From NCBI GenBank assembly GCA_947176425.1, contig CAMWQV010000019.1:1-12309 (forward strand): a stretch of DNA of 12,309 nucleotides, written 5' to 3'. Numbering within the stretch: position 1 is the stretch's first letter; each line of letters opens with the position of its first letter. Of this stretch, positions 1,993 to 12,133 are shown piece after piece. The notes beneath the pieces are model-generated. The model saw only the letters and a program-made list of their open reading frames with translations. It searched no databases and was not told where the DNA came from. A program made the position numbers and the translations under genes. This DNA comes from an uncultured Clostridia bacterium. GTDB lineage: Bacteria > Bacillota > Clostridia > Oscillospirales > Oscillospiraceae.

Positions 1993-2270
1993 TTAATTTG
2001 GCAGTAATATGCAATTAACGCACGATTAACGCAACAGCAACACACGAAAAATACAACATTAACAATCGAGCAACTTGTTTTCAATACCTGCATCTTTTCC
2101 AAATTTATGCGGGTATGGCCGTGTTCAGTTCTCAAGGTGCCTATATAAAAGGGGCGGCGGTTGACTCCCCCTGTGCCGATGGGGTATACCCATGAGCGCC
2201 CCCGCTTCTGTTCAAGCGGGACCGGGCTTGCACCGGTGGCGGCCTGGGGCCGTCGGCCTTGCGGGTCGAT

Positions 2271-3018: not shown

Positions 3019-3159
3019 TTACCAGCCCAGCAATTTGAGGATTGCCGCTGTGATTAGGCCGGAAATGATGCCCGCCAGGATGTTGTCTTGGAACGATTCC
3101 TTCCTATCGGGCCGCGCCGCAGGTTTCGGCTTGCGGCGCTTTTTCTTTTGCTTTGCCAT
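3019..3159 (-). CDS. 46-aa tail-anchored membrane peptide with poly-basic N-terminus
   Basis: Hand-translated as MAKQKKKRRKPKPAARPDRKESFQDNILAGIISGLITAAILKLLGW. SD GAGGAGGTGAG lies about 6 nt upstream of the ATG at 3159, and the TAA is at 3019-3021. Confidence 0.55.
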   Translation of the reverse strand: MAKQKKKRRKPKPAARPDRKESFQDNILAGIISGLITAAILKLLGW

Positions 3160-3185
3160 TGCTCTCACCTCCTCTCTATGTTTTT

Positions 3186-3316: not shown

Positions 3317-3550
3317 ATGGGAGGCCGCGCTAGTTCCGCAAGTAAAAACAAGTGGATCGCTAAAGCGTATGACCGAATAAATCTGACTGTGCCAAAGGGC
3401 GATAAGGACAGGCTCCAAGCCCACGCAGAGGCCCGTGGGGAGTCCGTCAACGGCTTTATCAAGCGGGCCATATCTGAGACCATGGAACGGGACAACGCCG
3501 ATCTTGGGGCCGCTGAGGGCCGCGCAGAGGCAAAAGAGGAGGGCACCTGA
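3317..3550 (+). CDS. Ribbon-helix-helix (Arc/CopG-type) DNA-binding protein
   Basis: ORF track 3317..3550, with SD GGAGGGG upstream. The pattern AYDRINLTVPKGDKDRLQAHAEARGESVNGFIKRAISE is a beta-strand followed by two helices, typical of the RHH fold. It sits divergent from an operator-bearing promoter. Confidence 0.7.
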   Translation: MGGRASSASKNKWIAKAYDRINLTVPKGDKDRLQAHAEARGESVNGFIKRAISETMERDNADLGAAEGRAEAKEEGT

Positions 3551-3552
3551 TT

Positions 3553-3720
3553 TCAGGTGTCCTCCAATTCTATTTTATCGACCTTTTCCTCAAACTCCTT
3601 CACCCATTCCTTACAAGCCCATTCGATTTCTTTGATTCTGGAGCGTCCGTAGTATTTCCCGATATAGCTCATCTTCTGAGCAAGTTCCTTGTCCATGACC
3701 ATTGTGAATTTTATATCCAT
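3553..3720 (-). CDS. 55-aa RHH-like small protein
   Basis: Hand-translated as MDIKFTMVMDKELAQKMSYIGKYYGRSRIKEIEWACKEWVKEFEEKVDKIELEDT. SD GAGGTGA lies 5 nt upstream of the ATG at 3720, and the stop is at 3553-3555. The strand-helix-helix pattern resembles CopG/antitoxin-type proteins. Confidence 0.55.
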   Translation of the reverse strand: MDIKFTMVMDKELAQKMSYIGKYYGRSRIKEIEWACKEWVKEFEEKVDKIELEDT

Positions 3721-3801
3721 TGCAATCACCTCACCAGTATTCTACCTGTCAGGCATTGCTTTGGGGCGAATCCAGTATTGATTTCATACTGCAAATGTGT
3801 T

Positions 3802-3843
3802 AAAATAAAGCCGCCGACCAGGAGCGGTAACTCCTGGTCGGCG
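3802..3843 (-). terminator. Rho-independent terminator of the Spo0A_C-like gene
   Basis: A 13-bp stem pairs 3812-3824 with 3831-3843 (CGCCGACCAGGAG / CTCCTGGTCGGCG) around loop CGGTAA. The minus strand then reads TTTATTTTA. Confidence 0.8.
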
Positions 3844-3851
3844 ACAGGGCC

Positions 3852-4193
3852 TTATGTTTGATTACGGCGGATGTACTCCGCTACAGCCGAAATGAATTCT
3901 GTGGGCCAGGGACGCTCGGCGAGGTGGTATCCGACAACCTCGTCGAGCTTTTCTCTTCCACCCCGTTCCCAGCATGTATTTATTGCGGTTCGATTGGCAC
4001 GGTCAACGGCTTTCCACGTTGTACCGTAGTGCCTTGCTGCCTCCGGGTAGAGGTCTTTGGTGATCCCCTGGATACGCATTGGCTCAGCGACGATCCGCTC
4101 TATGCTGTACGTCAAGTATTGGTATCCGCATAGCCTCATGGGGATGTGTAATTCATTTAATGTCTGCTGTACGACCACAGTAATGCTATCCAT
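3852..4193 (-). CDS. Stand-alone Spo0A C-terminal (Spo0A_C, PF08769-like) DNA-binding domain protein, no receiver domain
   Basis: ORF track 3852..4193, with SD AAAGGAG 8 nt upstream. The stretch LHIPMRLCGYQYLTYSIERIVAEPMRIQGITKDLYPEAARHYGTTWKAVDRANRTAINTCWERGG...PTEFISAVAEYIR aligns by eye to B. subtilis Spo0A IGVPAHIKGYLYLREAI...[36 protein letters not shown]...PTNSEFIAMVADKLR. Confidence 0.85.
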   Translation of the reverse strand: MDSITVVVQQTLNELHIPMRLCGYQYLTYSIERIVAEPMRIQGITKDLYPEAARHYGTTWKAVDRANRTAINTCWERGGREKLDEVVGYHLAERPWPTEFISAVAEYIRRNQT

Positions 4194-4284
4194 AACGCAT
4201 CTCCTTTGTCTTTTCTGTGGATTGCGCTACAGAGCAAGGAGGTCCACGGTTACGCGGAGGGGGTCCCCTCCCCTTTGACCACAT

Positions 4285-4326
4285 AAAAATGCAACTCCGT
4301 TCACTAAGAATAGAGTTGCATTTTTT
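4285..4326 (-). terminator. Bidirectional intrinsic terminator downstream of the recombinase gene
   Basis: The stem ATGCAACTC (4289-4297) / GAGTTGCAT (4313-4321) has an A-run on the left and a T-run (4321-4326) on the right. A U-tract therefore follows the hairpin on either strand. Confidence 0.7.
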
Positions 4327-4375
4327 ACTACATAGATTTAATTAGCCGGTCGGTTTATTAAATCTGTGTAGTAAA
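4324..4375. repeat. 52-bp imperfect inverted repeat (19-nt arms, 1 mismatch, 14-nt spacer TAGCCGGTCGGTTT)
   Basis: Arms 4324-4342 and 4357-4375 have the core ACTACATAGATTTAAT / ATTAAATCTGTGTAGT. The repeat starts 13 nt past the recombinase stop, with no U-tract on either strand. Confidence 0.7.
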
Positions 4376-4387
4376 TTCCTTGAAAAA

Positions 4388-5779
4388 TTAAGGCCGAAAA
4401 GATATTGAAATTTGGCGGGAGGGATAAATGTATATTTTGTCAATTACCATTCGCCAAAAAGCCTGTTTGCCAAGACGGTCGAGCCCACTATACATTTCCT
4501 GCCACCCGAGTGTGAAAATCGACAACAGCCTGTCTCCGTGCGGGAGTGAGGGAGATATACTATGTTCCTCAATGTCCAGGGCATCCATTTGGGCTGTGAG
4601 TGCTTCAAAATCTTTCCGGTACAACTCCAAGTCGATTATATCATCAACGTACAGATCTTTCAAGCGGGAAAATTTCTTGCGCAGCTTAGCGCGCTCCTCC
4701 TGGAAATTCTTCACGGGCGGCGCGGAAGATCTGAGCTGCTCGAGTTCGGCAACATATTTCTCTAATTCTGAGTCAATATTCTCCAGCAAGTATTCTTCAA
4801 TCACGATTTCACGTATATTAACGCCGTTGGTGCAATTGCCCTTAATATATTTACCGTGGCAGTTATAAGAAGTTGTATAGGTCTTCCCTCCGGACTTCAA
4901 AATATGTGAATAGGTGCGGCCACCAAAACGATGGCCGCACTGTGGACAATAGATCAGCCCCGTAAATAGGTACACCCGGTTTCCGTCGGTTTTCCGCTCT
5001 GTTCTGCGGCGATTTGCCTTAATGTCGTCATACTGCTCTTTTGTGATATAAGCAGGGCACATTTTGTCTATACCGCCAAAACGACCGTAATATGCTTCGT
5101 TATTCAACATATTCAATGTAAGATGGTAAGAAAAAAGAATACCATATCGTTCCTGTACCGCTGACCGTGCTTTTTGAACAGATCGGCTGGTCAAAAAAGT
5201 TTCAAAGAAACAGGACATAGGGCCCTCCATCTCGGGGTCCTTCACAATTTTCTTTCCCTCGATTTTATAGCCGGTCGGAACGCTTCCTGTGCACGGCTCC
5301 TTACGCTCCTTCTTGGCATCAAACACAGCCCTGATTCGCTCGCTGGTGCGGTCAGCCTCGTCCTGCGCTACCGATAACATGATGTTGATCTTCAGGCGGC
5401 CCGAAGCGGTAGAGGTGTCGTAGTCCTCATGGATCGTCTTCCAGTTGACCTTATGGGTCTCTAAGACTTCCTGCACCTTGTAGTATTCGGATATGTTCCG
5501 AAACCACCTATCCAGCTTTGTGAAGACGATCAAGTCGATTTTTCCGCTGCGCACATCCTCCAGGAGCCGCTGCAGCTCCGGCCGCTTCGTGGCGGGCTTC
5601 CGGGCAGAGATGCCTGCGTCCACATAGTAGCCCGCGATCTTCACGTGGTTCTCCGCCGCCCAGGCATCCAGTGCCTCGCGCTGCGCCCCGATGGACAGGC
5701 CATGGATGGCCTGTTCCTCGGTTGACACTCTCAGATAAGCTGCGACTTTGGTCAGTACGGGAAATTCTTTTGACTTCAT
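4388..5779 (-). CDS. Large serine recombinase (phage integrase type)
   Basis: ORF track 4388..5779, 463 aa, with SD AGGAGG 8 nt upstream. The N-terminal resolvase catalytic motif is AAYLRVSTEEQ...GLSIGAQ. It also has a recombinase domain, a zinc ribbon (CPQCGH...YNCHGKYIKGNC) and a C-terminal coiled coil. Confidence 0.95.
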   Translation of the reverse strand: MKSKEFPVLTKVAAYLRVSTEEQAIHGLSIGAQREALDAWAAENHVKIAGYYVDAGISARKPATKRPELQRLLEDVRSGKIDLIVFTKLDRWFRNISEYYKVQEVLETHKVNWKTIHEDYDTSTASGRLKINIMLSVAQDEADRTSERIRAVFDAKKERKEPCTGSVPTGYKIEGKKIVKDPEMEGPMSCFFETFLTSRSVQKARSAVQERYGILFSYHLTLNMLNNEAYYGRFGGIDKMCPAYITKEQYDDIKANRRRTERKTDGNRVYLFTGLIYCPQCGHRFGGRTYSHILKSGGKTYTTSYNCHGKYIKGNCTNGVNIREIVIEEYLLENIDSELEKYVAELEQLRSSAPPVKNFQEERAKLRKKFSRLKDLYVDDIIDLELYRKDFEALTAQMDALDIEEHSISPSLPHGDRLLSIFTLGWQEMYSGLDRLGKQAFWRMVIDKIYIYPSRQISISFRP

Positions 5780-6030: not shown

Positions 6031-6127
6031 GAAGCTAACTCGTGAAGGGTGAAAGCTGGGTTCCCGAATGGGAGTAGGTGTTTGCACCAAGAATCCCAAG
6101 CTCCTGGGGTTAGCTTCTCTTTTTCTT
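6031..6127 (+). ncRNA. Candidate roughly 90-nt structured small RNA (promoter-proximal, closed by a 9-bp helix and a U-tract)
   Basis: GAAGCTAAC (6031-6039) pairs perfectly with GTTAGCTTC (6108-6116) and is followed by TCTTTTTCTTT. Inner helices are GCTGGG/CCCAAGC (6055-6060 / 6095-6101, one bulge), TCCC/GGGA (6062-6065 / 6070-6073) and GGTG/CACC (6077-6080 / 6085-6088). The 3' arm overlaps the stop codon of the opposite-strand gene. Confidence 0.35.
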
Positions 6128-7108
6128 TAAATGATCTTTGAGGCATTGAATAATGTTTTCAGGGTCTTTTTTTATTTCTTCAACAATGAAATCAATAGCC
6201 TGCGCAGAATAGCTATATGTTGGTGCGGCGTTAATTCTGTACGTGAAGCAAAGTTTTGCGTTTGACTTTATATCATAGTACCGAACGAAAAGATTGAAAT
6301 GGTACGAATTGAATACAGCAGGGTTTCCCTGATAGAGCAATTGAACTTTTGCCCGAAAGAGCCGATTGTTTATCTCTTTAATGCATTTCTTAGCAGTGTA
6401 TTTGAAAGAGTCATTTGGGTCTTTTAATTCTTTGATAATTTGAACTTTAGAATCTGCGTCTTTTGAAACGGCCAAAATTTCTGTTGCTTCACTTTTGTTT
6501 TTTGTGATGTAATGCCTGTGGTCTATACGAATGGCAAAATCACTGTTGCTTTGCGCAATCTCTGCGTTGATATTATCTGTAACAGTTAAAAATCTTTCCG
6601 CAATTTCTTTTGGATACTTTGCTCTGATTTCTGTCGCCGTTAATGTTCGTATGCTGGCGGCAAGTGTTAAGAAATTCTCTGGGACAACACAAGTCATATC
6701 AACACTGTGGAATTCCATCATTTTTTCATTGAAGTTGAATACACAAGCCTGAAAAAGAGGAATGTAAACCATCTCATATTCTTCTACGATAAAATGCGTA
6801 CTGGTATTGCGCAATTCTACAATTTTTTCTAGATTTTTTCGGATGGGTGCGTGCTCATTTGTAAAAATTGCTTTAATGCAATTTTCGAGAGAAATGGTTC
6901 TGCTTGGATTATCCCTATAATAAATTGCAGATTCGCCAGAAGTTTGGATAATTCTTGCTTTCAGCATTAACTCCCAAGCATTACAGATAAAAAAGCTGAA
7001 CCCTTCCACTCTGTAGCGGATGGAAGGTTTGTTATAGACCTCAAGCGCCATTAAGAAGGCCTCTTTAGCTTTGTCTATAAGTTTAGCCCTTAATGAAGGA
7101 TTGTCCAT
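6110..7108 (-). CDS. 332-aa protein with an HEPN-like RNxxxH motif; N-terminus resembles DUF3644 (PF12358); candidate abortive-infection/defence effector
   Basis: ORF track 6110..7108. The N-terminal helices are KAKEAFLMALEVYNKPSIRYRVEGFSFFICNAWELMLKA. ELRNTSTH (R100-x4-H105, nt 6794-6811) fits the HEPN Rx4-6H signature. The gene is AT-rich: sampled 60-nt lines give 25-38% GC, against 58% in a sampled ImmA line. Confidence 0.6.
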   Translation of the reverse strand: MDNPSLRAKLIDKAKEAFLMALEVYNKPSIRYRVEGFSFFICNAWELMLKARIIQTSGESAIYYRDNPSRTISLENCIKAIFTNEHAPIRKNLEKIVELRNTSTHFIVEEYEMVYIPLFQACVFNFNEKMMEFHSVDMTCVVPENFLTLAASIRTLTATEIRAKYPKEIAERFLTVTDNINAEIAQSNSDFAIRIDHRHYITKNKSEATEILAVSKDADSKVQIIKELKDPNDSFKYTAKKCIKEINNRLFRAKVQLLYQGNPAVFNSYHFNLFVRYYDIKSNAKLCFTYRINAAPTYSYSAQAIDFIVEEIKKDPENIIQCLKDHLKKKRS

Positions 7109-7256: not shown

Positions 7257-7880
7257 ATGAGCTACAAAGATTATCAAAACGCAAGAGACTCAGCCTGGAG
7301 GATTCTTTTGGACTGCGGGATCGACCGGCTCCCGGTGGACCTCAACCCAATCTGTAAACACTTAGGTGTCAGGGTTGTTCGGTACTCTAAAGCAGGCCCG
7401 CTCCTCGATCTGCCCAATTTGTCAAAAGCCATGAGGTGGTACGATGGCCTGGCGTTTTATGCAGACGAGCTGCCTGTCATCCTGTACAACGACGCTTGTT
7501 CCCCTGAGCGCATCCGGTTTACAGTCGCCCATGAGTTGGGCCACATCATTCTCGCGCATGTGAAGCCGGAGCAGGGCACGACAGCGAATCGGGAGCCACC
7601 GAAAAGAAACGATCCCATAGAAGTGGCAGCAAACCAATTTGCGGCCCGCCTTCTGGCCCCGGCCTGCGTGCTTTGGGGTATGCAGCTACATACCGCTGAG
7701 GAAATTGCCTCGGCCTGCTTTATCTCGAAACAAGCGGCAGAGTTCCGGGCAGCAAGAATGGAGGACCTGTACCGGCGGAATCGGTTTCTGACCTCACCCC
7801 TGGAGCAGGAAGTGTTTCAACGGTTTAAGCCGTTTATCAAGGAAGAGACACATCATCATCCGGTACATCGTCTGCGCTAA
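7257..7880 (+). CDS. ImmA/IrrE-family (COG2856) zinc metallopeptidase, anti-repressor protease
   Basis: ORF track 7257..7880. The HEXXH motif is in FTVAHELGHIILAH, with downstream EVAANQFAARLLAP, typical of the family. It sits adjacent to the XRE repressor. Confidence 0.9.
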   Translation: MSYKDYQNARDSAWRILLDCGIDRLPVDLNPICKHLGVRVVRYSKAGPLLDLPNLSKAMRWYDGLAFYADELPVILYNDACSPERIRFTVAHELGHIILAHVKPEQGTTANREPPKRNDPIEVAANQFAARLLAPACVLWGMQLHTAEEIASACFISKQAAEFRAARMEDLYRRNRFLTSPLEQEVFQRFKPFIKEETHHHPVHRLR

Positions 7881-8412
7881 TTCTCTCCGCCTGAACAGAA
7901 CTGTTTTTAATTGCAGCGGCCTGATGCAAGGGCCGCTGCTCTTTTTCTGCCGGCACTTCCGAAGACGGGAACGATACAAGGCGGTTTTCGCCTTCGTCAA
8001 TTTCATCCACACCTTTCGATTTGGTAGTGGCCTCAGTATCCTCCTTGAACACGCTTTTGAACTTCTCCAGTATCTGCGAGCGGACATCCTGTGGAAGGTC
8101 AAAGTAAGCCTTGGCAATGGCAAGCTCCAGGGGTGACGCTCCGCGATCTTTTGCATACTGGTCGAGGCTGAATGTGGCCGGTTCAATAAATATGGGGCCA
8201 TCGCCCCCAGTCCCATTGATAAGCCAATCTTCATCTACATGAAATTCATGGCAAATACGGTTAATGATAAGTTTGCTTGGACGGCATTTTTCTGGTTGTT
8301 TTCCCATTTTCGAGATATAAGCCGGGGTTACATCAATTTTTCGAGCAAATTCGCTCATATTTCCGCCAACTGCGTCTACAACCTTCATGATTCGTATAGC
8401 TATGGCTCCCAT
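7837..8412 (-). CDS. XRE-family HTH repressor (ImmR/CI-like, no S24 peptidase domain)
   Basis: ORF track 7837..8412, with SD AAGGAGG 8 nt upstream. The N-terminal HTH is MSEFARKIDVTPAYISKMGK...INRICHEFHVDEDWLINGTG, and the C-terminal half is acidic and low in complexity. It is divergent from a consensus early promoter that carries palindromic operators. Confidence 0.85.
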   Translation of the reverse strand: MGAIAIRIMKVVDAVGGNMSEFARKIDVTPAYISKMGKQPEKCRPSKLIINRICHEFHVDEDWLINGTGGDGPIFIEPATFSLDQYAKDRGASPLELAIAKAYFDLPQDVRSQILEKFKSVFKEDTEATTKSKGVDEIDEGENRLVSFPSSEVPAEKEQRPLHQAAAIKNSSVQAERISADDVPDDDVSLP

Positions 8413-9732: not shown

Positions 9733-10467
9733 ATGAACGAACTTGCAGCATATCAGCAAAGTGATCTCCCCGCTCAACCGGCAGACCTCGCGCGGTTTAT
9801 GATCGTGGCGCAGGAGAAGGTCAAGGCTGTGAAAGCTGAAATCCGGGCGATCCAAAAGTTAAAGCTAGCCAAAGAGGTCTATGCCCAAAAGATGGAGGAG
9901 CAGCGGCGGCTTCAGGAGGTGATTCTGTTGGCCTATCAGCGGATGGGCGAGATCACGCGGGAAATGCCCAAGAGTAGTGGCAACCAGTACACAAGTGCTT
10001 TTTCGCATAAGCGCGAAGAAGCACAGCCAAAGAGCAAAGCCATTCGAGAGCTCGGTTTCTCTAAGGACCAAGTCAGCCGCATGGAGCAGATGGCCGCCCA
10101 CCCTGAAATCGTGGAAGAGGTGATAGCGGAATCCCAGGCTGGGCAGACCGAGGCCACCCAGGGGGAGGTCCTGCGCCGTATCAAGGAACGGGAAAACATT
10201 ATTGACTTGGCTGACGTGCGCAAGGAACAGTTTGACCAGAACCGTGCTCAAATTGAGGCAGACGCCAAATTAGCGAGGGCCTTTGTAAAGGCCACCCATG
10301 CGCCCTTAGAACTTGCGGAGGATTTGGATTCGGTGGCCGCTGCAATCTGGCGTAATGCGGATGGGGCTGTACAGTCGGATATCGAGGACATTGATCTGGC
10401 GGTCCAGGCACTTAGTACCATCAAAACAAAACTCATAAATGGGAGGCGATTGTATGGGAGCCTCTAA
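9733..10467 (+). CDS. Hypothetical 244-aa early protein, coiled-coil N-half with a possible HTH (IRELGFSKDQVSRMEQMAAHPEIVEE)
   Basis: This is an in-frame ATG at 9733 inside track ORF 9400..10467, with SD GAGGAGG 14 nt upstream. The upstream part of the track ORF overlaps the minus-strand gene and promoter. The start is somewhat uncertain because an in-frame GTG occurs at 9721. Confidence 0.65.
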   Translation: MNELAAYQQSDLPAQPADLARFMIVAQEKVKAVKAEIRAIQKLKLAKEVYAQKMEEQRRLQEVILLAYQRMGEITREMPKSSGNQYTSAFSHKREEAQPKSKAIRELGFSKDQVSRMEQMAAHPEIVEEVIAESQAGQTEATQGEVLRRIKERENIIDLADVRKEQFDQNRAQIEADAKLARAFVKATHAPLELAEDLDSVAAAIWRNADGAVQSDIEDIDLAVQALSTIKTKLINGRRLYGSL

Positions 10468-10852
10468 ACTGATTACAAAAGAGGCGAGAGCACTCATCAT
10501 CAACGAAATTCACGACCGGGGGCAAATGAGTAAAAGCGAAATTGCGGCCCTAATTCGGCCCCACTGCTCCTTTGACCCAGTGACGTTGCAGGAACAGGCC
10601 ATTAACCGGCTTGTTGGGAGAATCTGCCGGAGCATCCGGGATGAGTCTGGGGTTCGAACAGTGTTCATCGCAAAGGGCCGAGACACGATCGTAAATGTAG
10701 AAACCAGTACCTCTATCACTCTTGTGACGGTGGTGGATGAACAGCTCAAAGCAAACATTAAGGGGCTAGCCGCGTCAGAAAAAAAGACATCCCTGCGGAA
10801 ACAGGAGCTTTCTGGACAGATGAGCTTGCTTGAGGTATCGCAATTGGAATAA
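10454..10852 (+). CDS. Hypothetical 132-aa protein
   Basis: This is the ATG at 10454 within track ORF 10439..10852, with SD GGGAGG 7 nt upstream. It overlaps the preceding stop by 14 nt, indicating coupling. No family was recognised. Confidence 0.6.
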   Translation: MGASKLITKEARALIINEIHDRGQMSKSEIAALIRPHCSFDPVTLQEQAINRLVGRICRSIRDESGVRTVFIAKGRDTIVNVETSTSITLVTVVDEQLKANIKGLAASEKKTSLRKQELSGQMSLLEVSQLE

Positions 10853-10972
10853 AAGACGCCCCATCAGGTGATGACGACACCTGACAGGGCAAGCAACCCT
10901 TAAAAAACCACAAAAAGGTCACAGTGGAATTATAACACATCCCCCTGCTGACCTGCAAGAGGAGAAATCATT

Positions 10973-11218
10973 ATGAATTTACCAGATGTGAAATATGCCA
11001 TCCCTGATGAAATCCTGGCCGATACCATCAAGACGCTGGAGTTTGCCCAGTCCCGGTATGAGCAGGAGGCCGCGGCCCTGATCGGCGCGGCCCTGATCGG
11101 CGCGGCCAGGCATGAGCAGGATGAAGTGCTCACTAGCCTGGGCAGGAAGCTGGGCCGGGAACGGCTGATGCAGTCCGACCGGGCGGCGGAGCTGGTCGCC
11201 TTCTACTTGAACCTGTAG
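10973..11218 (+). CDS. Hypothetical 81-aa protein carrying an in-frame 15-bp tandem duplication
   Basis: ORF track 10973..11218, with SD GAGGAG 8 nt upstream. Confidence 0.6.
   Translation: MNLPDVKYAIPDEILADTIKTLEFAQSRYEQEAAALIGAALIGAARHEQDEVLTSLGRKLGRERLMQSDRAAELVAFYLNL
11072..11107 (+). repeat. 15-bp tandem repeat GCGGCCCTGATCGGC, two full copies plus 6 nt
   Basis: Copies lie at 11072-11086 and 11087-11101, with a partial copy at 11102-11107. Together they encode AALIG-AALIG-AA in frame. Confidence 0.9.
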
Positions 11219-11230
11219 GAGGTGGACAGC

Positions 11231-11431
11231 ATGGCAAAGTCAAAAGGGATCACCGGCTGCACCATTTTAAATCCGCTCACCCCCTCAGCAGCGGAGATGG
11301 CAATCCGCTGGCTCACAGAGCAGAGTCTCAAGAATGCCGGTCTGGCGGCGGACATCACCACCCGGGAGAGAAAGCCAGGAGAAACCGGGACGGCGGTTCT
11401 GAAGGACAGTTCCGAGAAAAGCGCCGTTTAA
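11231..11431 (+). CDS. Hypothetical 66-aa protein
   Basis: This is the ATG at 11231 within track ORF 11222..11431, with SD AGGAGG 8 nt upstream. Confidence 0.55.
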   Translation: MAKSKGITGCTILNPLTPSAAEMAIRWLTEQSLKNAGLAADITTRERKPGETGTAVLKDSSEKSAV

Positions 11432-11459
11432 GAGCGATGCACATGACATAGAACAGAAG

Positions 11460-12080
11460 GTGTACACCATAAAAAAGTACATATTTTTGAAGAATAATCT
11501 TTTGACCCTCGCCCTTTTCGCAGCCATCAGCGCCGTGTTTACTTCGGCTCTGTGCGTATCCTACGAGCTGGGTCGGGCGGCTGAGGGCAGTGAATGGACT
11601 GAGCAGCTGATCAGCGAAACGCAGGAGGCCATGGAACGCAGGCAGATCGTGACCATAGCCCCGCAGGATATCCCAATGGTGGCAGTGTCGGCGGTACCAC
11701 TGCCGCTCCAGATTCCCTATCGGGAGGATGTGCCCCTGAGCCAGGAACTGCAAGCCGTCCTCCTGGAAGCCTGCGAGGAGACTGGTGTGGAGTACGCCGT
11801 GGCCCTCGGTGTGATCGAAGTCGAAAGCGACTTTCACGAGGACGCCTATAACGGCTGCTCCGGCTGCTACGGCTTAATGCAGCTAAACCCGGCCTACTTT
11901 CCGGACAACCTCTCCCCAGCGGACAACATCCGGGTAGGGGTGGCTTACCTGGCAGACTGCATTGCGCGGTACAACGACCTGGAGGCTGGGCTGACCACCT
12001 ACAACGCAGGATATGACACAGGCAGCCGCTGGTACGCCGAGGCTGTGCTGGAGGCAGCGGAGCGGTGGGAGGGCGCATAG
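11460..12080 (+). CDS. Membrane-anchored SLT-domain lytic transglycosylase
   Basis: ORF track 11460..12080. The N-terminal TM segment is LLTLALFAAISAVFTSALCV. SLT motifs present are VIEVESDF (catalytic Glu), GLMQL and TYNAGY. The start is uncertain, as the GTG at 11460 lacks a well-spaced SD. Confidence 0.8.
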   Translation: MYTIKKYIFLKNNLLTLALFAAISAVFTSALCVSYELGRAAEGSEWTEQLISETQEAMERRQIVTIAPQDIPMVAVSAVPLPLQIPYREDVPLSQELQAVLLEACEETGVEYAVALGVIEVESDFHEDAYNGCSGCYGLMQLNPAYFPDNLSPADNIRVGVAYLADCIARYNDLEAGLTTYNAGYDTGSRWYAEAVLEAAERWEGA

Positions 12081-12133
12081 TCCCTAAGCAACCACGATTT
12101 GACACCCTAAAAAAATCATTGGAGGTTATACAA

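What the first reader, a model, noticed from the sequence alone, without database searches (positions are those of the whole stretch)
3852..4193. Phage-borne, receiver-less Spo0A DNA-binding domain
The 113-aa protein is essentially only the Spo0A C-terminal effector domain, and its similarity to the B. subtilis Spo0A helix-turn-helix region is clear by eye. The phospho-receiver domain is absent. Receiver-less Spo0A fragments are known to bind DNA and act without phosphorylation. An element-encoded copy could therefore activate, mimic or compete at 0A boxes and rewire the host sporulation or stationary-phase decision. It could also have been co-opted as a phage regulator. The recognition-helix residues differ (DRANRTAINTCW versus [12 protein letters not shown]), so its target specificity may differ from the host protein. 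It has its own terminator but no obvious sigma-A promoter, so it may be read through from int or use another sigma factor.
Basis: partly seen in the sequence, partly recalled or inferred. Interest (0 to 1): 0.65.

Follow-up and report, generated by a model that had tools for sequence, protein, structure and literature searches.

The report
Receiver-less Spo0A domain on a phage
A temperate phage of gut Clostridia carries a small, well-conserved gene for only the DNA-binding half of Spo0A, the master switch of spore formation; such phage copies have been reported before, but nobody has shown what they do.

Summary
ORF 3852..4193 (-) encodes a 113-aa protein that is a complete Spo0A effector domain and nothing else. 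Pfam PF08769 matches end to end (E=3e-28). The AlphaFold model (pLDDT 96) superposes on Spo0A structures 1FC3/1LQ1 (TM 0.89). dN/dS is about 0.1.

The idea is not new. Schwartz et al. 2023 (mBio) reported receiver-less spo0A homologs in gut phages and made the same proposal.

It is not a recently truncated host spo0A. It belongs to a deep receiver-less clade, and only 22 of the 150 nearest cluster representatives carry a receiver. In this clade, positions invariant in genuine Spo0A are replaced (R211A, H218T, S210K).

The gene sits next to attP, a 52-bp palindrome at 4324-4375, shown by comparison with integrated relatives. In the lysogen, int and this gene therefore lie at opposite prophage ends.

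The same slot (integrase, attP, Spo0A_C, small ribbon-helix-helix-type gene, lysis genes) recurs in phages with unrelated integrases. So does a conserved leader hairpin that sequesters the Shine-Dalgarno sequence and the AUG.

Most likely it is a phosphorylation-independent, host-directed transcription factor with specificity shifted from the 0A box. Its targets and phenotype are untested.

The parts
3852..4193 (-). Gene for a 113-aa stand-alone Spo0A effector (DNA-binding) domain
   Evidence: ORF. PF08769 full length, E=3.4e-28. PDB 1fc3/1lq1 hits. AF2 pLDDT 96.2. Foldseek TM 0.89. dN/dS 0.09-0.17.
4191..4229 (-). Leader hairpin in which 5'-UAGCGCAAUCC pairs with GGAGAUGCGUUA(UG). It sequesters the Shine-Dalgarno sequence (4201-4204) and the start codon (4191-4193).
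   Evidence: RNAalifold on 6 and on 9 loci. A covariance model hits only directly upstream of solo Spo0A_C genes: 10 hits in 217 kb, 3 of them not used to build it. 92% of cells are paired against 28-46% in slid controls, and 6 of 13 pairs show compensatory changes. No Rfam family covers it.
4238..4249 (-). Conserved leader box CCGTGGACCTCC (consensus CCGYGGNCCYCC). It contains an anti-Shine-Dalgarno-like CCUCC. Its role is unexplained.
   Evidence: Conserved in the window, L001, L021, L023, L018, L112, L007, L116 and L115. It is not repeated elsewhere in the window beyond chance.
4256..4273 (.). G+C-rich palindrome GGGGAGGGGACCCCCTCC between the terminator-like hairpin and the leader
   Evidence: Sequence. 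L001 keeps it with paired changes, GGGGCGGGGGCCCCCGCC. Its function is not established.
4285..4325 (.). Hairpin flanked by A-run and T-run, a likely bidirectional terminator separating int/attP from the Spo0A_C gene
   Evidence: Inverted repeat I3, 18-nt arms. Conserved in L001, L021 and L023-L026. The simple terminator scan did not call it, because of mismatches next to the loop.
4324..4375 (.). attP: a 52-bp imperfect palindrome (25-nt arms, 2-nt centre) that starts 12 nt after the int stop codon
   Evidence: Inverted repeat I1, conserved in L001 and L021. In contigs L023-L026, homology to the phage runs through the Spo0A_C-proximal arm and stops at the palindrome centre. Beyond the centre lies the 3' end of a VirB4-like ICE ATPase gene, NF045971, E=8e-42.
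4388..5779 (-). Large serine integrase, 463 aa
   Evidence: Resolvase and Zn_ribbon_recom domains. phrog_95 integrase, E=1e-100. Relatives are mostly in Oscillospiraceae genomes.
3810..3845 (-). Intrinsic terminator of the Spo0A_C gene
   Evidence: 16-bp stem, 11 G-C pairs, T-run. Inverted repeat I7.
3553..3729 (-). 58-aa protein (p58) directly downstream. It is 75-85% identical across phage lineages in which Spo0A_C is only 45-48% identical.
   Evidence: Homologs sit in the same position in L018/L019 and L116-L118. No Pfam, PHROG or PDB match. The single-sequence AF2 model has low confidence, pLDDT 70. A ribbon-helix-helix fold is only my reading of the sequence.
3317..3550 (+). 77-aa Arc/CopG-like ribbon-helix-helix protein, convergent with p58. 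They share a hairpin at 3538-3565.
   Evidence: RHH_1 at 22.9 bits (cut-off 20.5) and RHH_5. phrog_13890, E=2e-22. Weak RelB/Arc/HicB similarity. Homologs lie next to Spo0A_C in L001, L021, L023, L018, L108 and L115.

Best explanation
The gene encodes a functional transcription factor of the Spo0A effector-domain family that needs no phosphorylation. It has the six-helix domain with its helix-turn-helix but no receiver to hold it inactive.

It is not a recently truncated host spo0A. It belongs to an old, large, receiver-less clade whose recognition helix and neighbouring surfaces differ from genuine Spo0A. Its DNA sites are therefore probably related to, but not the same as, the 0A box (inferred).

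It occupies the accessory slot between attP and the lysis genes. After integration it is the first gene inside one prophage end, pointing inward, with int at the other end (shown by comparison).

The gene travels with its own roughly 70-nt leader and usually with a small ribbon-helix-helix-type gene, among phages whose integrases and lysins are unrelated. The leader hairpin hides the ribosome-binding site and start codon, so translation is probably gated (inferred).

The only DNA that consistently travels with the gene is this small cassette. Its operators are therefore more likely in the host chromosome, or in rival mobile elements, than in the phage backbone. I commit to a host-directed, lysogenic-conversion-type regulator that alters stationary-phase or sporulation-related transcription in a spore-forming Oscillospiraceae/Clostridia host (inferred, untested).
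For: Domain identity and fold.

Purifying selection: dN/dS 0.09-0.17.

Receiver-less clade: there are 5383 clusters with E<=1e-3. Only 22 of the 150 nearest representatives have a Response_reg domain. In a neighbour-joining tree the query falls in a 69-leaf clade with 62 solo proteins, and every receiver-bearing sequence falls in a separate clade.

Kept and lost residues: T194, K195, Y198, T207, T208, V212, R214, R217, W224, G227, P247 and F252 are kept. R211, H218, S210, E221, A223, T248 and N249 are changed, and 3 residues at 241-243 are deleted.

attP position.

Same slot with other recombinases: a 43%-identical serine integrase (L018/L019); a 567-aa TndX-like serine recombinase (L116); and a tyrosine integrase with a tRNA-fragment attP (L112).

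Leader.

Terminator on each side, as for a moron.

The isolated Spo0A DNA-binding domain binds legitimate targets without phosphorylation: PMC3485338.

Likely host family has canonical spo0A: integrase relatives are mostly in Oscillospiraceae, and Oscillibacter genomes carry canonical spo0A.
Against: No promoter was identified for the gene, so expression in the lysogen is unproven. The leader hairpin argues that translation is normally off.

The DNA target is unknown. The window holds no 0A box, and no repeated candidate operator was found.

R214 is His in most close relatives, so even within the family the specificity is not fixed.

The host is inferred only from integrase relatives at 64-69% identity or less.

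The slot argument does not exclude a phage-directed role. The tree is neighbour-joining without support values and uses cluster representatives only.
Confidence: 0.5

Rival explanations
1. It is a canonical Spo0A mimic or competitor. The protein binds the same 0A boxes (TGTCGAA) as host Spo0A~P. It either switches the Spo0A regulon on constitutively or blocks it, and so directly forces or prevents sporulation. 2023.
For: Same fold and helix-turn-helix. R214, R217, E/D213, V212, T207 and T208 of the recognition region are kept in the window protein. The isolated Spo0A DNA-binding domain is active without phosphorylation (PMC3485338). The proposal is published for phage homologs (PMC10294663).
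Against: S210, R211, H218 and I216 are 89-100% conserved in 19 receiver-bearing Spo0A sequences from cluster representatives plus Bacillus and Geobacillus. Here they are K, A, T and N, and the replacements are clade-wide: A/S at 211, T at 218 in 73% of solo proteins. R214 is His in 5 of 8 close relatives. The helix E surface is different and is invariant within the close family (GGREKLDEVVGYHL; F236->V, T239->H). From my own recollection of the literature, helix E contacts sigma-A in B. subtilis. NCBIfam Spo0A equivalog TIGR02875 scores 75 bits against a cut-off of 200. The protein is only 37% identical to Spo0A of the likely host family.
Confidence: 0.2
2. It is a phage-internal regulator. 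With the neighbouring small ribbon-helix-helix-type proteins it forms a secondary control region, comparable in logic to P22 immI. This region would regulate phage genes such as integrase/excision, an antirepressor or late genes, rather than host genes.
For: Constant adjacency to attP/int and to small DNA-binding-type genes in several lineages. The conserved leader could contain an auto-operator (the CCGYGGNCCYCC box). Host Spo0A is known to repress phage phi29 development (my own knowledge), so a Spo0A-type domain acting on phage promoters has a precedent.
Against: The cassette occurs with unrelated integrases (two serine types and a tyrosine type) and unrelated lysins (CHAP, Amidase_2). No phage backbone sequence is therefore co-inherited that could carry cognate operators. 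The leader box is not repeated elsewhere in the 12.3-kb window beyond chance. The gene lies outside the ImmA/repressor switch region at 7257-8412.
Confidence: 0.2
3. It is a recombination directionality factor, or integrase accessory factor, for the adjacent large serine integrase.
For: It is immediately next to int and attP in the circular form, and this arrangement is conserved in L001-L004, L021, L018 and L116.
Against: The same gene and leader sit next to a tyrosine integrase with a tRNA-derived attP in L112/L109. The integrases range from 31 to 80% identity to the window's. The domain is a DNA-binding transcription-factor fold and is not like any directionality factor of a serine integrase that I know of (own knowledge).
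Confidence: 0.05
4. It is a non-DNA decoy or a decaying remnant. Either the free effector domain titrates a partner of host Spo0A (its receiver domain, sigma-A or sigma-H), or the gene is a non-functional leftover of captured host DNA.
For: The surfaces of helices E and F differ from Spo0A but are strongly conserved within the close family, which would fit a protein-protein interface.
Against: A remnant is excluded by dN/dS of about 0.1 at saturating dS, the intact full-length domain and the conserved expression signals. A pure decoy would not need to keep the DNA-facing Arg/Thr/Lys residues of the helix-turn-helix.
Confidence: 0.05

Closest known systems
Spo0A effector (C-terminal) domain of Bacillus/Geobacillus (PDB 1LQ1, 1FC3; Pfam PF08769)
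   Same: It has the same six-helix fold with a helix-turn-helix (TM 0.89, rmsd 1.4 A). The Pfam match is full length. Many helix-turn-helix positions are kept: T194, K195, Y198, T207, T208, V212, R214, R217 and W224.
   Different: There is no receiver domain and no linker. Identity is about 30-37%. Changes are R211A, S210K, I216N, H218T, E221N, A223C, F236V, T239H, T248W and N249P, plus a 3-residue deletion in the loop between helices E and F. It fails the NCBIfam Spo0A equivalog cut-off. It is encoded on a phage next to attP, not in the host spoIVB-spo0A neighbourhood.
Phage-carried truncated spo0A homologs described by Schwartz et al. 2023, mBio ('Human-Gut Phages Harbor Sporulation Genes', PMC10294663)
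   Same: It is the same kind of object: effector-domain-only Spo0A homologs on phages of gut Firmicutes. The paper proposes that they act without the host phosphorelay. PHROG phrog_24603 (111-aa profile, function unknown) and six BFVD viral proteins of 98-163 aa named 'Spo0A C terminal' are further instances.
   Different: This particular protein has no close relative in the annotated phage collection, IMG/VR or GTDB genomes at more than about 50% identity. The passages I read do not mention the attP-adjacent slot, the leader hairpin, the small partner genes or the clade-specific recognition-helix changes. I did not read the whole paper or its supplements.
Phage-encoded sporulation sigma factors (Schwartz et al. 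2022, mSphere, PMC9429907)
   Same: They share the general logic: a phage copy of a host sporulation regulator could reprogram dormancy. According to the 2023 paper, ectopic expression of phage sigF/sigG homologs reduced spore yield.
   Different: The protein family and mechanism differ: a sigma subunit of RNA polymerase versus a DNA-binding activator/repressor domain. No experiment exists for the Spo0A-type phage genes as far as my searches show.
Lysogenic-conversion 'moron' genes between the lysis module and the attachment site of Gram-positive temperate phages
   Same: The position is the same: between the endolysin and attP, and first inside one prophage end. The gene is flanked by terminators on both sides and is exchanged among otherwise unrelated phages.
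   Different: No autonomous promoter could be recognised. The gene carries a leader that sequesters the translation start, which is not a typical moron feature. The product is a regulator rather than a toxin or surface protein.

Membership tests
Spo0A_C domain family (Pfam PF08769) | Profile match above the curated gathering score over the whole domain | tested here: met
   98.1 bits against a cut-off of 25, E=3.4e-28, profile 1-104/104.
Spo0A_C domain family (Pfam PF08769) | Six-helix fold with an internal helix-turn-helix, as in 1FC3/1LQ1 | tested here: met
   AF2 pLDDT 96.2 with six helices. Foldseek TM 0.89 and rmsd 1.4 A to 1fc3_A. The next unrelated fold has E>0.6.
Spo0A, master regulator of sporulation (NCBIfam TIGR02875 equivalog) | N-terminal phospho-accepting receiver domain | tested here: not met
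   The protein is 113 aa and the only domain found is Spo0A_C. The ORF is bounded upstream by the leader, a hairpin and attP.
Spo0A, master regulator of sporulation (NCBIfam TIGR02875 equivalog) | Score at or above the curated equivalog cut-off | tested here: not met
   75.2 bits against a cut-off of 200.
Spo0A, master regulator of sporulation (NCBIfam TIGR02875 equivalog) | Invariant recognition-helix signature [15 protein letters not shown] | tested here: not met
   The window protein has K-A-V-D-R-A-N-R-T-A-I-N-T-C-W. The canonical residues are 84-100% conserved in 19 receiver-bearing sequences.
Spo0A, master regulator of sporulation (NCBIfam TIGR02875 equivalog) | Binds the 0A box TGTCGAA and controls sporulation initiation | not testable with these tools
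   The only indirect result is that the window contains no TGTCGAA, where 1.2 would be expected by chance.
Receiver-less phage-carried spo0A homologs (Schwartz et al. 2023) | Effector domain only, encoded on a phage genome | tested here: met
   Effector only. The window carries holin/endolysin, integrase and an ImmA/repressor pair, plus an intact attP.
Prophage accessory ('moron', lysogenic-conversion) gene | Located between the lysis module and the attachment site, bracketed by terminators, and exchanged independently of the phage backbone | tested here: met
   Terminator at 3810-3845 and hairpin at 4285-4325. attP at 4324-4375. The same slot occurs with unrelated integrases and lysins.
Prophage accessory ('moron', lysogenic-conversion) gene | Own promoter and expression from the repressed prophage | tested here: inconclusive
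   There is no sigma-70 consensus between the hairpin and the start codon. Expression cannot be measured here. In integrated relatives the flanking host gene points away from the gene.
Recombination directionality factor of a large serine integrase | Specific partnership with one integrase family | tested here: not met
   The same gene and leader are found next to a tyrosine integrase (L112) and next to serine recombinases of 31-80% identity.

The most novel reading that the evidence does not exclude
The solo Spo0A_C genes are not Spo0A mimics. They are a distinct, old family of transcription factors borne by mobile elements, with their own DNA specificity. They move as a small portable cassette: a previously undescribed leader RNA that locks the Shine-Dalgarno sequence and AUG, the gene, and a small ribbon-helix-helix-type partner. 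The cassette inserts at the attP-proximal end of temperate phages with unrelated integrases. Because attP separates the gene from int and from a conserved promoter-like site inside int (TTGAAA-17-TATAAT, window 4635-4663), its expression could differ between the circular and the integrated genome. It would then act as an integration-state-dependent switch on host development.
Probability: 0.3. Interest if true: 0.6.

Novelty: new member of a known kind. Interest (0 to 1): 0.4.

Why it matters
Spore formation governs persistence and transmission of many gut Firmicutes, and Spo0A is the single decision point. If these genes really re-wire Spo0A-type regulation, a phage-encoded, always-active Spo0A-type DNA-binding domain would give temperate phages a direct handle on that decision. 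The family is large (thousands of sequence clusters), so such genes could be a widespread influence on dormancy in the gut.

The value added here is practical:
- The phage copies form their own clade with a changed recognition helix, so experiments should not assume 0A-box binding.
- The gene comes with a conserved translational-control leader, which must be removed or mutated in any expression test.
- The gene sits at a prophage end created by integration, so its regulation should be examined in both the integrated and the excised state.

Tried and rejected
1. Close relatives in reference collections. A profile of the 8 closest proteins found nothing in GTDB genomes or IMG/VR. Wider alignments were too diverse for the tool. 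I used hand-made degenerate DNA patterns instead.

2. Annotated phage genomes. The 13 tblastn hits are unannotated 'Bacteriophage sp.' faecal contigs. The three tested are full-length receiver-plus-effector Spo0A, so they are not the same kind of gene and may be bacterial DNA.

3. Plasmids. Only six records matched, four of them annotated as full-length spo0A, on large replicons.

4. 0A boxes. There are none in the window.

5. The leader box CCGTGGACCTCCT as a repeated operator. It is not enriched.

6. Alternative promoters. Checking by eye against my recollection of the consensus for sigma-H, -E, -F, -G, -K, ECF and sigma-54, I saw no convincing fit. A TGG...TGC pair has the wrong spacing for sigma-54.

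7. Directionality-factor idea. Rejected because the cassette also accompanies a tyrosine integrase.

8. A second, upstream leader hairpin (GAGG...CCTC). Support is too weak, because its pairs are mostly invariant.

9. virB4 as the integration target of the nearest GTDB integrase relatives. Not found: L029 lies near glnA and L030 next to a sigma-70-like gene.

10. Residue-level DNA contacts from the 1LQ1 paper. The paper is not held, and the papers that are held give no residue list. I therefore used conservation in receiver-bearing Spo0A as a proxy.

11. Fold of p58. There is no sequence match, and the single-sequence model is too weak to search with.
Full report
OBSERVATION

The ORF is there as described: 3852..4193 on the minus strand, ATG start, 113 aa, with an AGGAG Shine-Dalgarno sequence 7 nt upstream. 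Pfam PF08769 (Spo0A_C) matches residues 8-108 over the entire 104-position profile, at 98 bits against a cut-off of 25 and E=3.4e-28. Nothing else matches.

An AlphaFold2 model built on 59 relatives is very confident (pLDDT 96.2) and has six helices. It superposes on 1FC3/1LQ1 with TM 0.85-0.89 and rmsd 1.4-2.1 A, and no unrelated fold comes close.

The gene is under purifying selection. dN/dS is 0.09-0.17 at dS 1.1-2.2 against three relatives of 67-72% identity. The strong terminator after the gene (3845..3810, 16-bp stem) and the absence of a sigma-70-type promoter on the minus strand between 4194 and 4486 are also confirmed.

SURROUNDINGS

The window is a piece of a temperate phage genome. 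It holds a gp49-like gene, a holin and a CHAP endolysin (506-1935). A 1.3-kb mostly non-coding stretch follows, containing a twister-sister ribozyme. Next come a 77-aa Arc/CopG-like RHH gene (3317-3550, +), a 58-aa gene (p58; 3553-3729, -), the Spo0A_C gene, and a 463-aa large serine integrase (4388-5779, -). Beyond the integrase lie a low-G+C DUF3644/EC042_2821 gene that matches the PADLOC candidate defence family PDC-S19, an ImmA/IrrE protease with a divergent HTH repressor-like gene, and early genes.

THE ATTACHMENT SITE LIES BETWEEN int AND THE Spo0A_C GENE

Twelve nucleotides after the int stop codon there is a 52-bp imperfect palindrome (4324-4375; 25-nt arms, 2-nt centre). This is the architecture expected of a serine-integrase attP (my own knowledge). 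It is conserved in related contigs L001 and L021.

Contigs L023-L026 carry a 69%-identical Spo0A_C. In them, homology to the phage runs from the gene upstream through the hairpin and the gene-proximal palindrome arm, and stops exactly at the palindrome centre (...GATG|CCGGTCGGTTTCTTAAATTTATGTAAC...). Beyond that point the DNA encodes the last 91 profile positions of a VirB4-like conjugal-transfer ATPase of the CD1110 family (NF045971, E=8e-42).

Those contigs are therefore prophage-host junctions. The relative is integrated in a virB4-like gene of an integrative conjugative element, and the palindrome is attP. The window, which holds the intact palindrome, represents the excised, replicating or packaged form.

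It follows that in a lysogen the Spo0A_C gene is the first gene inside one prophage end, pointing inward, and int is at the other end. Read-through from int is impossible in the lysogen. In the circular form it would have to pass a conserved hairpin with a U-run (4285-4325). In the integrated relatives the flanking host gene points away from the Spo0A_C gene.

WHAT KIND OF Spo0A_C PROTEIN IS IT

A full HMMER search of 1.84 billion cluster representatives finds 5383 clusters with E<=1e-3. Among the 150 best, only 22 carry a receiver domain. The rest fall into three groups: single domains of about 105-135 aa, domains with short N-terminal extensions, and tandem arrays of two to four Spo0A_C domains.

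In a neighbour-joining tree of 196 domain copies, the window protein lies in a 69-leaf clade of which 62 are solo proteins. All receiver-bearing Spo0A sequences lie in a separate clade. The tree has no support values.

I compared the groups column by column, using B. subtilis numbering that I derived from the 1LQ1 alignment. The solo clade keeps T194, K195, Y198, T207, T208, V212, E/D213, R217, W224, G227, P247 and F252. It replaces residues that are 84-100% conserved in receiver-bearing Spo0A: R211->A/S, H218->T, S210->K/Q, A223->C and E221->N. It also has F236->A/V, T239->H and a 3-residue deletion at 241-243. In the close family, T248->W and N249->A/P as well. R214 is Arg in the window protein but His in 5 of its 8 closest relatives.

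The protein is 37% identical to the effector domain of an Oscillibacter Spo0A and about 30-33% identical to Bacillus Spo0A. It is therefore not a recent capture from a host of the likely family. It fails the NCBIfam Spo0A equivalog cut-off, 75 bits against 200.

A RECURRING CASSETTE IN A RECURRING SLOT

Seven proteins of 67-74% identity exist in public assemblies, all effector-only. Wherever enough DNA is available, their contigs show one of two arrangements. Either the order is integrase, Spo0A_C, a 60-aa RHH gene, then lysis and tail genes on the opposite strand; or the contig is the integrated junction.

More distant members show the same order with different recombinases:
- IMG/VR L018/L019: the serine integrase is 43% identical, Spo0A_C 48%, p58 85% and the RHH protein 46%.
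- L116-L118: a 567-aa TndX-like serine recombinase, Spo0A_C 45% identical, p58 75% identical.
- IMG/VR L112/L109: a tyrosine integrase, then a tRNA 3'-end fragment that is the likely attP, then Spo0A_C (44% identical), and further on an Amidase_2 lysin on the opposite strand.
- L108 and L115: Spo0A_C followed by RHH genes.

The gene is thus not tied to one integrase, which argues against a directionality factor. It occupies the attP-to-lysis accessory slot, where Gram-positive temperate phages usually keep lysogenic-conversion genes (my own knowledge).

A CONSERVED LEADER

About 70 nt upstream of the start codon are conserved at the nucleotide level across these lineages, although the proteins are only about 45% identical. 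The 3' part forms a hairpin in which (U)AGCGCAAUCC pairs with GGAGAUGCGUUA. This buries both the Shine-Dalgarno sequence and the AUG (window 4191-4229).

A covariance model built from six loci finds ten matches in 217 kb, all immediately upstream of solo Spo0A_C genes. Three of them were not used for building: L007 at 50 bits, L116 at 40 bits and L115 at 31 bits. On the resulting alignment, 92% of cells are paired against 28-46% in slid controls. Six of 13 pairs show compensatory double changes, and no shuffle reaches the covariation score. A caveat is that the alignment is fitted to the model.

No Rfam family matches this region. A 5' box, CCGYGGNCCYCC, contains an anti-Shine-Dalgarno-like CCUCC. 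It is conserved but unexplained, and a second upstream helix is not supported.

I infer translational gating of the gene. The trigger is unknown.

MECHANISM

Shown: the gene is intact, selected and phage-borne. It encodes a receiver-less Spo0A-fold helix-turn-helix domain. It sits at attP, and it has a conserved SD/AUG-sequestering leader.

From established knowledge: the isolated Spo0A DNA-binding domain binds its targets without phosphorylation, because the inhibitory receiver contacts are absent (PMC3485338).

Inferred: the protein is a constitutively DNA-binding transcription factor whose specificity has moved away from the 0A box. The only DNA that consistently travels with it is its leader and a small partner gene, so its operators are more probably in the host chromosome, or in other resident elements, than in the phage backbone. 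It is therefore a lysogenic-conversion-type regulator, plausibly acting on stationary-phase or sporulation genes.

The likely host is an Oscillospiraceae or related clostridial bacterium. The best integrase relatives, at 64-69% identity, are in Oscillospiraceae and uncultured Clostridia MAGs, and Oscillibacter genomes carry canonical spo0A.

I put about 0.5 on this composite and about 0.9 on the molecular identity alone. The rivals are a canonical 0A-box mimic or competitor (0.2), a phage-internal regulator acting with the RHH proteins (0.2), a directionality factor (0.05), and a decoy or remnant (0.05).

COMPARISON WITH WHAT IS KNOWN, AND NOVELTY

Schwartz et al. [quoted passage not shown] They proposed that these homologs may act without host signals. 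PHROGs already holds a 111-aa family of unknown function (phrog_24603). BFVD lists six viral proteins of 98-163 aa named after the Spo0A C-terminal domain.

I found no experimental study of such a protein.

As far as the passages I read go, the following points are not in that paper:
- the separate deep clade with its recognition-helix signature;
- the attP-adjacent slot shared by phages with unrelated integrases;
- the small partner genes;
- the leader hairpin.

VERDICT

The finding is of moderate interest, 0.4.

Noticed in passing
window 2183-2269 (-): A twister-sister self-cleaving ribozyme (RF02681, 77.8 bits against gathering score 34, full model) lies in a roughly 1.3-kb mostly non-coding stretch between the endolysin and the RHH gene. 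A second copy sits in the analogous region of the related prophage contig L023 (2235-2315, 78.9 bits).
   Followed up: partly
window 6110-7108 (-): A low-G+C gene (36-40% against about 52% for the window) encodes a DUF3644 plus EC042_2821 restriction-endonuclease-like protein. It matches the PADLOC candidate defence family PDC-S19 (E=2e-141) and phrog_9605. It lies between int and the ImmA/repressor pair and is probably a prophage-borne defence gene.
   Followed up: partly
L023-L026 (junction at L025 ~1277-1284); window 4324-4375: Relatives of this phage are integrated inside the 3' part of a VirB4-like conjugal-transfer ATPase gene (CD1110 family) of an integrative conjugative element. The prophage therefore splits the element's transfer gene. 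The centre of attP differs between relatives: CCGACCGG in the window, CCGGTCGG in L001 and L023, and CCGGTAGG in L021.
   Followed up: partly
L075 (JAJQCH010000028.1, Oscillospiraceae MAG) 10001-12091: A large serine recombinase, 42% identical to the window integrase, abuts a full-length host spo0A in convergent orientation. That gene's effector domain is cut after '...LQKFFGYTVSN' (Pfam positions 1-86 of 104) and continues into unrelated read-through. The junction lies about 25 nt after the recombinase stop codon. This looks like a mobile element inserted inside spo0A itself. The missing 3' piece is not in the 16.5 kb held.
   Followed up: partly
L033, L034, L035, L036, L054 (Oscillibacter and Oscillospiraceae MAGs): Integrase relatives of 51-53% identity lie only 5-7 kb from an intact full-length spo0A (256-281 aa). 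I did not work out what they are integrated in.
   Followed up: no
P0009-P0011, P0014 and others; L009 6001-7287: Many relatives are tandem arrays of two to four Spo0A_C domains in one protein (243-454 aa) with no receiver. One three-domain protein sits in a core chromosomal neighbourhood with an asparagine synthase gene, rpmF, der/engA and plsY.
   Followed up: no
L011-L013 (GenBank MT835737, MT835504, MT835718, 'UNVERIFIED: Bacteriophage sp.'): The Spo0A hits in these faecal 'phage' records are full-length receiver-plus-effector Spo0A proteins (255-286 aa). The contigs may be bacterial rather than viral.
   Followed up: partly
window 4635-4663 (-), inside int: A near-consensus sigma-70 promoter-like site with an extended -10 (TTGAAA-17-TATAAT, preceded by TG) points towards attP. 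Its hexamers are invariant in L001 and L021, while the spacer varies at synonymous positions. It overlaps the conserved peptide LKDLYVDDIID, so protein constraint may explain the conservation.
   Followed up: partly
window 3553-3729 (-): The 58-aa protein downstream of Spo0A_C is far better conserved between phage lineages (75-85% identity) than Spo0A_C (45-48%) or the integrase (31-43%). It matches no family or structure.
   Followed up: partly
L112 168-308 (+): A skipping-rope RNA (RF02924, 67.6 bits) lies upstream of the tyrosine integrase in the IMG/VR phage that carries a solo Spo0A_C.
   Followed up: no
window 3019-3168 (-): A 49-aa ORF has a very basic N-terminal half and a hydrophobic C-terminal segment (MRAMAKQKKKRRKPKP...ILAGIISGLITAAILKLLGW). 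It is followed by a terminator-like hairpin on the opposite strand at 3114-3139. It could be a small membrane peptide or toxin-like gene. It has no family match.
   Followed up: no
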